Source: Escherichia coli
GTDB taxonomy: Bacteria > Pseudomonadota > Gammaproteobacteria > Enterobacterales > Enterobacteriaceae
Length of the DNA stretch: 64,000 bases
Direction: 5' to 3' (one strand)
NCBI RefSeq assembly: GCF_002854065.1
Contig: NZ_CP024147.1
Positions within the stretch are counted from its first letter, which is position 1; each line of letters begins with the position of its first letter. Of this stretch, positions 52,464-52,783 are shown in pieces. Both the position numbers and the translations under genes were made by a program. The notes beneath the pieces are model-generated. The model made no database searches. It saw nothing but the letters and a program-made list of their open reading frames with translations, and was not told the origin of the DNA.

Positions 52464-52559
52464 ATGCTGGGTAATATGAATGTTTTTATGGCAGTACTGG
52501 GAATAATTTTATTTTCTGGTTTTCTGGCCGCGTATTTCAGCCACAAATGGGATGACTAA
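52464..52559 (+). CDS. mgtS: 31-aa small membrane protein MgtS (YneM)
   Basis: ATG with GGAGG RBS; translation MLGNMNVFMAVLGIILFSGFLAAYFSHKWDD matches the recalled MgtS sequence; too short for the ORF track. Confidence 0.8.
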   Translation: MLGNMNVFMAVLGIILFSGFLAAYFSHKWDD

Positions 52560-52586
52560 TGAACGGAGATAATCCCTCACCTAACC

Positions 52587-52626
52587 GGCCCCTTGTTACA
52601 GTTGTGTACAAGGGGCCTGATTTTTA
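52587..52626 (+). terminator. rho-independent terminator downstream of mgtS
   Basis: stem GGCCCCTTGT...ACAAGGGGCC followed by TGATTTTTA. Confidence 0.6.
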
Positions 52627-52635
52627 TGACGGCGA

Positions 52636-52735
52636 AAAAAAACCGCCAGTAAACCGGCGGTGAATGCTTGCATGGATAGATTTGTGTTTTGCTTTTACGC
52701 TAACAGGCATTTTCCTGCACTGATAACGGATCGTT
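52636..52735 (-). ncRNA. mgrR: candidate PhoP-dependent sRNA (MgrR-like), ~100 nt
   Basis: PhoP-box-like direct repeat at 52767..52783 on the minus strand upstream, and a minus-strand terminator (stem CCGCCGG...CTGGCGG 52643..52660 plus T8) downstream; ends are estimates. Confidence 0.45.
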
Positions 52736-52766
52736 GACACAGTAGCATCAGTTTTCTCAATGAATG

Positions 52767-52783
52767 TTAAACGGAGCTTAAAC
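52767..52783 (-). promoter_or_regulatory. PhoP-box-like direct repeat GTTTAA-N5-GTTTAA
   Basis: minus strand reads GTTTAAGCTCCGTTTAA, close to the PhoP consensus (T/G)GTTTA-N5-(T/G)GTTTA; overlaps the dgcZ stop codon. Confidence 0.5.

What the first reader, a model, noticed from the sequence alone, without database searches (positions are those of the whole stretch)
52464..52783. mgtS small-protein gene and a putative convergent MgrR-like sRNA with a PhoP box overlapping the dgcZ stop codon
The 31-aa MgtS ORF, missed by the ORF track, is followed by a plus-strand terminator. Within 15 bp on the opposite strand is a second terminator, preceded about 100 nt upstream by GTTTAA-N5-GTTTAA, so a roughly 100-nt minus-strand transcript is predicted whose promoter overlaps the end of dgcZ. 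Exact sRNA ends are inferred from structure only.
Basis: partly seen in the sequence, partly recalled or inferred. Interest (0 to 1): 0.35.

Follow-up and report, generated by a model that had tools for sequence, protein, structure and literature searches.

The report
Known E. coli mgtS–mgrR magnesium locus

Summary
Window 52338-52800 differs from E. coli K-12 MG1655 at 3 of 463 bases. The RefSeq annotation transfers directly:
- mgtS: 52464..52559 (+)
- dgcZ: 52778..53668 (-)

Rfam STnc560 (the family covering MgrR) scores 281.9 bits. MgtS matches NCBIfam small_MgtS. Published Term-seq places RNA 3' ends at both predicted terminators.

GTTTAA-N5-GTTTAA is unique in the window, and its distal hexamer is the last codon plus stop codon of dgcZ.

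Two refinements:
- Among 94 enterobacterial mgrR loci, the conserved PhoP box lies one half-site closer to the gene: CGTTTA-N5-CATTGA, 52773..52757. It sits 12 nt from an extended -10, the classical PhoP arrangement.
- The "mgtS terminator" lies inside the mgtT reading frame, so full-length MgtT needs read-through.

Novelty: already known. Interest is low.

The parts
52363..52397 (+). mgtS(-mgtT) promoter: a degenerate distal PhoP half-site AATTCA (52363-52368), N5, a consensus half-site CGTTTA (52374-52379), N12, and the -10 hexamer TAATAT (52392-52397).
   Evidence: Read directly from the sequence. The same ATTCA-N6-GTTTA-N12-TAnTAT layout is kept in Escherichia, Citrobacter, Salmonella and other genera. 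PhoQP-dependent reporter activity is published (PMC11429745). No transcription start site was mapped here.
52411..52464 (+). A 17-codon upstream ORF (MKIKVSEETHHTINGGK) whose TAA stop overlaps the mgtS ATG (TAATG). Its coding status is doubtful.
   Evidence: Sequence and translation. It is intact only in E. coli-like sequences among the mgtS loci examined. It may correspond to 'CDS58', reported upstream of mgtST by PIRT-seq (PMC12350097); that identity was not verified.
52464..52559 (+). mgtS (formerly yneM), encoding the 31-aa inner-membrane protein MgtS.
   Evidence: ORF. RefSeq mgtS b4599 lies at the homologous K-12 position. NCBIfam small_MgtS equivalog: 80.6 bits, E = 5.8e-23.
52559..52663 (+). 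mgtT, a 34-aa ORF. It overlaps the mgtS stop by 1 nt (TAATG), runs through the mgtS terminator hairpin, and overlaps the 3'-terminal 29 nt of mgrR on the other strand.
   Evidence: ORF. RefSeq b4775. It was found by ribosome profiling and confirmed by epitope tagging (bioRxiv 10.1101/511675) and lies in a PhoQP-dependent operon with mgtS (PMC11429745). ORF length varies from 7 to 83 codons between genera. There is no NCBIfam match.
52587..52627 (+). Intrinsic terminator of the mgtS transcript: hairpin 52587-52617 followed by UGAUUUUUAU.
   Evidence: Fold dG -22.6 kcal/mol, z = -4.7. A Term-seq 3' end at K-12 1622804(+) maps to window 52622 and was seen in two growth conditions (PMC7815308, supplementary file 1).
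52635..52732 (-). mgrR, the 98-nt Hfq-dependent small RNA MgrR. Parts: 5' hairpin about 52728-52698; ARN motif AAAAGCAAA 52696-52688; invariant seed-containing 20-mer 52682-52663; terminator stem 52661-52642; U-tail 52641-52635.
   Evidence: RefSeq ncRNA b4698 maps here with 97/98 identity; the one difference is C at position 4 where K-12 has U. Rfam RF01407: 281.9 bits. Fold dG -25.9, z = -2.9. Term-seq 3' ends map to window 52642 and 52637, with scores of 2.4-5.3 million. The 20-mer is found in 98 stretches of genome-collection DNA, nearly all labelled Enterobacteriaceae. ARN motif.
52739..52784 (-). mgrR promoter: extended -10 TGcTACTGT (52747-52739) and three in-phase PhoP half-sites, CATTGA (52762-52757), CGTTTA (52773-52768) and AGTTTA (52784-52779). 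The transcription start is G at 52732.
Evidence: Coordinates. The proximal pair plus the -10 is present in 94 of 95 mgrR copies, and the unscored TG at -15/-14 is 96-100% conserved. The full 13/13 composite motif occurs once in the window, against 0.0 expected. The distal hexamer overlaps the dgcZ stop codon.
52778..53668 (-). dgcZ (formerly ydeH), a zinc-regulated diguanylate cyclase. Its last codon plus stop codon (GTT TAA) form the distal PhoP half-site. There is no terminator of its own before mgrR.
   Evidence: ORF. RefSeq annotation. NCBIfam NF007380: 518.7 bits. dgcZ lies upstream of mgrR only in Escherichia and some Citrobacter, 17 loci in all.

Best explanation
This is the canonical E. 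coli mgtS-mgtT / mgrR locus: two convergent transcription units activated by PhoP, lying between ydeE and dgcZ.

How it works:
- Under low Mg2+, the sensor kinase PhoQ phosphorylates PhoP.
- On the plus strand, PhoP-P binds a box placed 12 nt upstream of the -10 (AATTCA-N5-CGTTTA-N12-TAATAT). This drives the mgtS(-mgtT) mRNA, which mostly ends at the intrinsic terminator at about 52622.
- On the minus strand, PhoP-P binds CGTTTA-N5-CATTGA, 12 nt upstream of an extended -10. This is a class II arrangement in which the box replaces the -35 element. It drives the 98-nt MgrR from G52732 to the terminator at 52661-52635.
- MgtS is a 31-aa membrane protein that raises intracellular Mg2+ by stabilising the MgtA importer and acting on PitA.
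- MgrR uses Hfq (ARN motif plus U-tail) and its invariant single-stranded seed to repress eptB, ygdQ, pitA and other mRNAs.

What rests on what:
- Shown here: sequence identity, gene order, RNA folds, motif uniqueness and conservation across the family.
- Taken from the literature: PhoP dependence, RNA 3' ends, protein and sRNA functions.
- Inferred: the proximal half-site pair is the core PhoP site; the Escherichia-specific distal hexamer on the dgcZ stop codon is an accessory third half-site.
For: - 460/463 identity to K-12 across 52338-52800.
- RefSeq features for mgtS, mgtT, mgrR and dgcZ lie at the homologous positions.
- The region is present in 5416 of 5426 complete E. coli genomes.
- Rfam RF01407 scores 281.9 bits against a gathering score of 55.
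- NCBIfam small_MgtS scores 80.6 bits.
- Both terminators fold far better than shuffled sequence.
- Term-seq 3' ends fall at window 52622(+) and 52642/52637(-) (PMC7815308 supplement).
- The exact PhoP-box 17-mer is unique in the window, with 0.01 expected by chance.
- The composite box-N12-(-10) motif is kept in 94 of 95 mgrR copies from the related loci. Its 12-nt spacing equals 'architecture I' of PhoP promoters (PMC3335776).
- The literature states that mgtS and mgrR are convergent and PhoPQ-dependent (10.1101/2021.06.30.450655).
- MgrR is described as a 98-nt, PhoP/PhoQ-dependent, class II Hfq sRNA with seed U55-A68 (PMC6239178).
- mgtS-mgtT is described as a PhoQP-dependent operon (PMC11429745).
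Against: Nothing argues against the identification itself. Open details:
- No expression data exist for this particular strain.
- The transcription start site is taken from the K-12 annotation and the promoter geometry. It was not measured here.
- I could not open Moon & Gottesman 2009, so I do not know which half-site pair the original authors called the PhoP box.
- My crude seed-eptB duplex calculation found the expected site at the eptB start codon but did not clearly beat shuffles: 31 of 500 did as well.
Confidence: 0.97

Rival explanations
1. The functional PhoP site of mgrR in E. coli is the pair the reader named, AGTTTA-N5-CGTTTA at 52784..52768. This pair ends 23 nt upstream of the -10. 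It would work like an 'architecture III' promoter (as at rstA and ompX), in which PhoP contacts the alpha-CTD of RNA polymerase, rather than as the -35-replacing proximal pair.
For: Both hexamers match the GTTTA core 5/5, whereas the proximal CATTGA matches only 3/5. A directly oriented box 23 nt from the -10 is active in natural and engineered PhoP promoters (PMC3335776). E. coli, E. whittamii and a divergent E. coli lineage keep the distal hexamer.
Against: The distal hexamer carries at most 0.41 bit per position across 93 distinct promoters. It matches at least 4/5 at the 11-nt register in only 4 of 94 loci. In contrast the proximal half-site, its 12-nt spacing and the TG-extended -10 are nearly invariant. 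In E. coli the distal hexamer is also constrained as the Val-stop of dgcZ, so its perfection need not reflect PhoP binding. The two readings are not exclusive: three in-phase half-sites could all be occupied.
Confidence: 0.2
2. The real RNA is the 214-nt species implied by the Rfam STnc560 model (52766..52553). It would start upstream of the annotated 5' end and read through the first terminator to a second hairpin.
For: The Rfam covariance model aligns end to end over 214 nt and includes a second strong hairpin, 52621..52587 on the minus strand, dG -23.2.
Against: - The first 34 model positions cover the -10 element and the proximal PhoP half-site, which are promoter DNA.
- The second hairpin is the reverse complement of the mgtS terminator and has no U-tract after it on the minus strand.
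- Term-seq puts a very strong minus-strand 3' end at 52642/52637, and the table rows returned show no further minus-strand 3' end next to it.
- RefSeq and the literature give 98 nt.
- My inference is that the Rfam boundaries reflect the original co-immunoprecipitation contig, not the ends of the RNA.
Confidence: 0.02
3. The short ORF, the hairpins and the direct repeat are chance features of an intergenic region.
For: None beyond the general fact that short ORFs and hairpins are common in any sequence.
Against: The exact box is expected 0.01 times in the window. Both hairpins have z-scores of -4.3 or lower. The 20-nt seed is retained in nearly a hundred genome-collection contigs, nearly all enterobacterial, and MgtS is 80-100% identical across most genera that keep it beside mgrR (61-65% in Kluyvera). 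Curated family models match. Experimentally mapped RNA ends coincide with the predicted terminators.
Confidence: 0.005

Closest known systems
E. coli K-12 mgrR (b4698; Rfam RF01407 STnc560), the PhoP-activated, Hfq-dependent class II small RNA
   Same: Same locus, strand and length, with 97/98 identity. It has the same 5' hairpin, ARN motif, seed, terminator and promoter.
   Different: One base differs: position 4 is C here and U in K-12. C is the Rfam consensus. There is nothing functionally distinct.
E. coli K-12 mgtS (yneM, b4599) and mgtT (b4775)
   Same: Both proteins are identical to K-12. They show the same TAATG overlap and the same position relative to ydeE and mgrR.
   Different: One synonymous change in mgtS, GCA for GCC.
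Architecture I PhoP-activated promoters (mgtA, phoP, slyB, pmrD; Zwir et al. 2012)
   Same: A directly oriented PhoP box ends 12 nt upstream of the -10 and replaces the -35 element. This holds at both the mgrR and mgtS promoters.
   Different: The E. coli mgrR promoter has an extra in-phase half-site one helical turn upstream. With the middle half-site it forms a second, overlapping box at the 23-nt ('architecture III') position. I did not see this three-half-site layout among the architectures in the passages I read.

Membership tests
MgrR small RNA (Rfam RF01407 / E. coli b4698) | Sequence and structure match to the curated covariance model above its gathering score | tested here: met
   281.9 bits against a gathering score of 55, E = 1.8e-64, full-length alignment.
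MgrR small RNA (Rfam RF01407 / E. coli b4698) | Orthologous position: downstream of dgcZ and convergent with mgtS, on the strand opposite mgtS | tested here: met
   The K-12 annotation transfers with a constant offset, and 460/463 bases are identical.
MgrR small RNA (Rfam RF01407 / E. coli b4698) | Hfq-binding modules: Rho-independent terminator with a long U-tail, plus an internal ARN/A-rich motif (class II sRNA) | tested here: met
   An 8-bp GC-rich stem is followed by 7 unpaired U. AAAAGCAAA lies at nt 37-45. Hfq binding itself was not testable here; it is published in PMC6239178.
MgrR small RNA (Rfam RF01407 / E. coli b4698) | Conserved single-stranded seed (U55-A68) complementary to the eptB mRNA | tested here: inconclusive
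   The seed-containing 20-mer is invariant by construction in the 98 retrieved stretches and is unpaired in the minimum-energy fold. The best duplex with the K-12 eptB leader covers its start codon (-8..+8), but the energy of -18.6 kcal/mol is matched by 31 of 500 shuffles.
MgrR small RNA (Rfam RF01407 / E. coli b4698) | PhoP/PhoQ-dependent induction at low Mg2+ | not testable with these tools
   Only the cis element could be tested: a PhoP box at the canonical 12-nt position, conserved in 94 of 95 copies. Induction is published for K-12.
MgtS small protein (NCBIfam NF033842) | A 31-aa protein matching the equivalog model above its cutoff | tested here: met
   80.6 bits against a cutoff of 35, covering residues 1-31 of 31.
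PhoP-activated promoter, architecture I | Direct-repeat (T/G)GTTTA-N5-(T/G)GTTTA box in direct orientation, ending about 12 nt upstream of the -10 hexamer | tested here: met
   mgrR has CGTTTA-ACATT-CATTGA-N12-TACTGT. mgtS has AATTCA-GCCTT-CGTTTA-N12-TAATAT. One half-site in each box is degenerate: 3/5 matches to the GTTTA core at both mgrR and mgtS. The definition is from PMC3335776. PhoP binding itself was not testable.

The most novel reading that the evidence does not exclude
Two details are not, as far as I could find, described in the literature I could open.

(a) In Escherichia, the mgrR promoter has three in-phase PhoP half-sites. The most distal one is built from the last codon and stop codon of dgcZ. 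This gives two overlapping PhoP boxes, at the 12-nt and 23-nt positions, and physically couples the end of a c-di-GMP synthase gene to a Mg2+-stress sRNA promoter. dgcZ has no terminator of its own, so its transcripts must run into mgrR.

(b) The major mgtS 3' end (52622) lies inside the mgtT reading frame. Full-length MgtT therefore needs terminator read-through, and any such read-through RNA is antisense to the MgrR terminator and U-tail. This would offer a route for cross-talk between the two PhoP-induced transcripts.

Either effect could modulate MgrR output specifically in Escherichia.
Probability: 0.2. Interest if true: 0.3.

Novelty: already known. Interest (0 to 1): 0.07.

Why it matters
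As a discovery it does not matter: mgtS (yneM) and mgrR have been characterised since 2009-2010, and mgtT since 2019.

Its value is as a calibration point. A reader working from sequence alone placed a real sRNA within 1-3 nt of its annotated ends and found its regulator's binding motif.

The comparative analysis adds a small practical caution. The best-looking consensus repeat in one genome is not necessarily the conserved functional register. Here the family-wide PhoP box sits one half-site downstream of the perfect repeat. Separately, the Rfam family boundaries for this RNA include promoter DNA and the antisense of a neighbouring terminator.

Tried and rejected
- Literature access: I could not open Moon & Gottesman 2009 (PMID 19889087 / PMC2841474), Wang et al. 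2017 (PMC5465934), Yin et al. 2019 (PMC6351178) or Minagawa 2003 (PMC161583); none is held. I therefore could not check the original definition of the mgrR PhoP box or the 5' RACE data. A full-text search for 'mgrR promoter' found nothing.
- Promoter scan: the generic sigma-70 scan finds no promoter in 52300-52900. This is expected, because both promoters lack a -35 element. The same scan missed the plus-strand mgtS terminator, which has a bulged stem, so I folded it separately.
- Consensus structure: RNAalifold on 89 MgrR sequences recovered only the terminator, with 7 pairs and one covarying A-U/G-C pair. The 5' third is too divergent for MAFFT to align, so I make no covariation claim for the 5' hairpin.
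- Seed-target pairing: RNAduplex of full-length MgrR against the eptB leader gave an uninformative long duplex. Restricting it to the seed gave the expected site without statistical support.
- Rfam boundaries: I considered that the 214-nt Rfam boundaries reflect a longer RNA and rejected this on the Term-seq and promoter evidence.
- Chance ORF: I considered that mgtS might be a chance ORF and rejected this on the family match and conservation.

Full report
**What is in the sequence**

Reading 52200-53100 and listing ORFs of at least 20 aa shows four reading frames:
- the end of a 403-aa MFS transporter gene, 51126..52337 (+);
- a 31-aa ORF at 52464..52559 (+), MLGNMNVFMAVLGIILFSGFLAAYFSHKWDD;
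- a 34-aa ORF at 52559..52663 (+);
- a GGDEF-protein gene on the minus strand ending at 52778.

Two hairpins lie between these genes.
- On the plus strand, a hairpin at 52587..52617 (dG -22.6 kcal/mol, z = -4.7) is followed by UGAUUUUUAU.
- On the minus strand, an 8-bp GC-rich stem at 52661..52642 is followed by seven unpaired U down to 52635 (dG -13.7, z = -4.3).

GTTTAAGCTCCGTTTAA occurs exactly once in the 64 kb window, at 52767..52783 on the minus strand. Chance expectation is 0.01 matches. Its upstream hexamer GTT-TAA is the last codon plus stop codon of the GGDEF gene.

**Identification**

- A megablast of 52300-52900 finds the region in 5416 of 5426 complete E. coli genomes. It is annotated there as ydeE, mgtS, mgtT and dgcZ.
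- In K-12 MG1655 the annotated features are mgtS 1622646-1622741 (+), mgtT 1622741-1622845 (+), the ncRNA mgrR 1622817-1622914 (-) and dgcZ 1622960-1623850 (-).
- Window 52338-52800 aligns to K-12 without gaps, with 3 differences in 463 bases. The annotation therefore transfers with a constant offset:
  - mgtS 52464..52559
  - mgtT 52559..52663
  - mgrR 52635..52732
  - dgcZ 52778..53668
- The three differences are one base upstream of the mgtS promoter, one synonymous change in mgtS, and C for U at MgrR position 4.
- The only Rfam hit in the whole window at gathering threshold is RF01407 (STnc560, 'Hfq binding RNA'), at 52553..52766 (-), with 281.9 bits.
- MgtS matches the NCBIfam equivalog small_MgtS (80.6 bits). 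The GGDEF protein matches the DgcZ equivalog (518.7 bits).

**Experimental support from the literature**

- MgrR is a 98-nt, PhoP/PhoQ-dependent, class II Hfq sRNA. It has a central A-rich (ARN) motif, and its pairing region is U55-A68 (PMC6239178).
- Term-seq of MG1655 (PMC7815308, supplementary file 1) lists three relevant 3' ends:
  - 1622804 (+), seen in two conditions, which is window 52622. This lies in the U-tract of the plus-strand hairpin.
  - 1622824 and 1622819 (-), with scores of 2.4-5.3 million. These are window 52642 and 52637, in the MgrR terminator U-tract.
- Both predicted terminators are therefore used in vivo. The two RNAs end tail to tail, 15-20 nt apart.

- The 34-aa ORF at 52559..52663 is the annotated gene mgtT (b4775).
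- It was found by ribosome profiling of stalled initiation complexes and confirmed by epitope tagging (bioRxiv 10.1101/511675).
- It was later shown to be PhoQP-dependent in an operon with mgtS. Deletion and overexpression gave no phenotype (PMC11429745).
- Its ATG overlaps the mgtS stop codon (TAATG).
- The ORF contains the whole mgtS terminator hairpin, and the Term-seq 3' end at 52622 falls at its codon 22.
- Its last 29 nt overlap the MgrR terminator on the opposite strand.
- By inference, full-length MgtT can only come from transcripts that read through the terminator.
- Across other genera the T(A/G)ATG overlap and an MN(G/D)DNP start recur, but the ORF length ranges from 7 to 83 codons.
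- The apparently conserved 'RPL...KGP' residues are simply the GC-rich arms of the terminator stem. I regard MgtT as poorly conserved as a protein.

**The PhoP box, refined with related sequences**

I scanned one genome per species for the 20-nt seed-containing stretch AATCTATCCATGCAAGCATT (MgrR nt 51-70). This returned 98 stretches of DNA. Nearly all come from Enterobacteriaceae, including Escherichia, Salmonella, Citrobacter, Enterobacter, Klebsiella, Raoultella, Kluyvera, Kosakonia, Leclercia, Lelliottia, Phytobacter, Trabulsiella, Yokenella and Siccibacter.

Anchoring on the promoter gives a consistent picture.
- 94 of 95 usable copies carry xGTTTA-N5-x(A/G)TT(G/T)A-N12-TAnnnT at 11 or more of 13 scored positions.
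- Positions that were not scored are also conserved: TG at -15/-14 (96% and 100%) and TT at -32/-31 (92% and 86%).
- In the window this corresponds to:
  - CGTTTA, 52773..52768
  - CATTGA, 52762..52757
  - the extended -10 TGcTACTGT, 52747..52739
  - the start G at 52732
- The full 13/13 motif occurs once in the window, against 0.0 in 100 simulations. The motif was derived from the family that includes this sequence, so that figure is partly circular.

A box ending 12 nt upstream of the -10 is exactly 'architecture I' of PhoP promoters such as mgtA, phoP, slyB and pmrD. In these, PhoP replaces the -35 element and acts as a class II activator (PMC3335776).

- Across the family, the distal positions carry at most 0.41 bit each.
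- Only 4 of 94 loci match the distal half-site at 4/5 or better at the 11-nt register.
- dgcZ lies upstream of mgrR only in Escherichia and some Citrobacter, 17 loci in all. Among these loci only E. coli and E. whittamii place the dgcZ stop codon on this hexamer.
PhoP can also activate from there.

The E. coli promoter therefore has three in-phase half-sites. I take the proximal pair to be the ancestral core site and the distal hexamer to be an accessory site, or a by-product of the dgcZ coding sequence. That is an inference, and only footprinting or mutagenesis can decide it.

The mgtS promoter has the mirror layout: a degenerate distal half-site and a consensus proximal one (AATTCA-GCCTT-CGTTTA-N12-TAATAT, 52363..52397). 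This layout is conserved in the genera that keep mgtS next to mgrR.

**Anatomy of the RNA**

- The 98-nt sequence folds into a 5' hairpin (nt 5-35), a long single-stranded stretch (nt 36-71) and the terminator (nt 72-91 plus U-tail). The fold has dG -25.9 and z = -2.9.
- The single-stranded stretch holds the ARN motif AAAAGCAAA (nt 37-45) and the seed.
- In an 89-sequence alignment the terminator is nearly invariant and has one covarying pair (A-U in 59 sequences, G-C in 21).
- The 5' third is too divergent to align, so I make no covariation claim for the 5' hairpin.
- A seed-only duplex search against the K-12 eptB leader finds pairing across the eptB start codon. This agrees with the published seed, but the energy is not distinguishable from shuffles: 31 of 500 did as well.

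**The Rfam boundaries**

- The RF01407 model spans 214 nt, 52766..52553.
- Its first 34 positions are promoter DNA, covering the -10 element and the proximal half-site.
- Its last 82 positions, beyond the MgrR terminator, include the reverse complement of the mgtS terminator, with no U-tract on that strand.
- The Term-seq ends and the 98-nt literature value show that the RNA is the shorter species. The family boundaries are generous rather than evidence for a longer transcript.

**Synteny**

- mgtS is adjacent to mgrR in about 48 of 100 copies: Escherichia, Citrobacter, Salmonella, Kosakonia, Phytobacter, Pluralibacter, Yokenella and Kluyvera.
- It is not adjacent in the Klebsiella, Raoultella, Leclercia and Lelliottia loci, nor in most Enterobacter-labelled loci.
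- The convergent pairing is therefore common but not obligatory.

**Verdict**

The finding is correct and is already known in full.

My additions are small:
- the missed mgtT gene and its odd relation to the terminator;
- the shifted register of the conserved PhoP box;
- the lineage-specific third half-site formed by the dgcZ stop codon.

Interest is low (0.07) and the novelty class is 'already known'.

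Noticed in passing
window 52559..52663 (+): mgtT contains the entire mgtS terminator hairpin, and the Term-seq 3' end at 52622 falls at its codon 22. Full-length MgtT therefore needs terminator read-through, and the read-through RNA would be antisense to the last 29 nt of MgrR. ORF length varies from 7 to 83 codons between genera, and the 'conserved' residues coincide with the terminator stem arms.
   Followed up: partly
window 52411..52464 (+): A 17-codon upstream ORF (MKIKVSEETHHTINGGK) ends in TAATG on the mgtS start codon. This gives three small ORFs chained by one-base stop/start overlaps. It is intact only in E. coli-like sequences. It may be the 'CDS58' reported upstream of mgtST by PIRT-seq (PMC12350097).
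   Followed up: partly
window 51400..51436 (+), inside ydeE: A 12-nt unit, TAGTGAATAACG, is present in 3 perfect tandem copies here and in 1 copy in K-12. The in-frame expansion adds NNVVNNVV to the YdeE transporter (403 aa against 395 aa).
   Followed up: yes
window 52732..52778 (-): dgcZ has no terminator between its stop codon and the mgrR promoter, and the Term-seq rows returned by the searches show no minus-strand 3' end there. dgcZ transcripts presumably run through mgrR and end at its terminator, so they would carry the MgrR sequence in their 3' UTR.
   Followed up: no
L004 (Escherichia albertii), mgrR promoter: E. albertii has 11 extra bases between the dgcZ stop and the core PhoP box. 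Its Val-stop GTTTAA sits 22 nt (two helical turns) upstream of the middle half-site, with an AGTTTT between them. This is an indel of exactly one helical turn relative to E. coli.
   Followed up: partly
L014 (Enterobacteriaceae bacterium RIT691), 1436-1455 and 3030-3049: There are two MgrR copies about 1.6 kb apart, with nearly identical 3' two-thirds. One has the conserved PhoP promoter and an adjacent mgtS. The other has neither; its best promoter score is 8/13.
   Followed up: no
L008 (MAG labelled Caldithrix sp.) and L067 (labelled Chryseobacterium sp.): Contigs assigned to non-enterobacterial organisms carry an enterobacterial mgtS-mgrR locus. L008 encodes MgtS and MgtT identical to E. 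coli. Contamination or mis-binning in the public assemblies is the likely cause.
   Followed up: no
window 52553..52766 (-): The Rfam RF01407 model (214 nt) extends 34 nt upstream of the mapped MgrR 5' end into the promoter. It also extends 82 nt beyond the 3' end, across the antisense of the mgtS terminator. Its first modelled hairpin lies in promoter DNA.
   Followed up: yes
L001 (NZ_CP182139.1) and hits H5, H6: Several E. coli strains carry IS1 insertions at or near this locus. In strain CUWW06, IS1B splits ydeE just upstream of mgtS.
   Followed up: no
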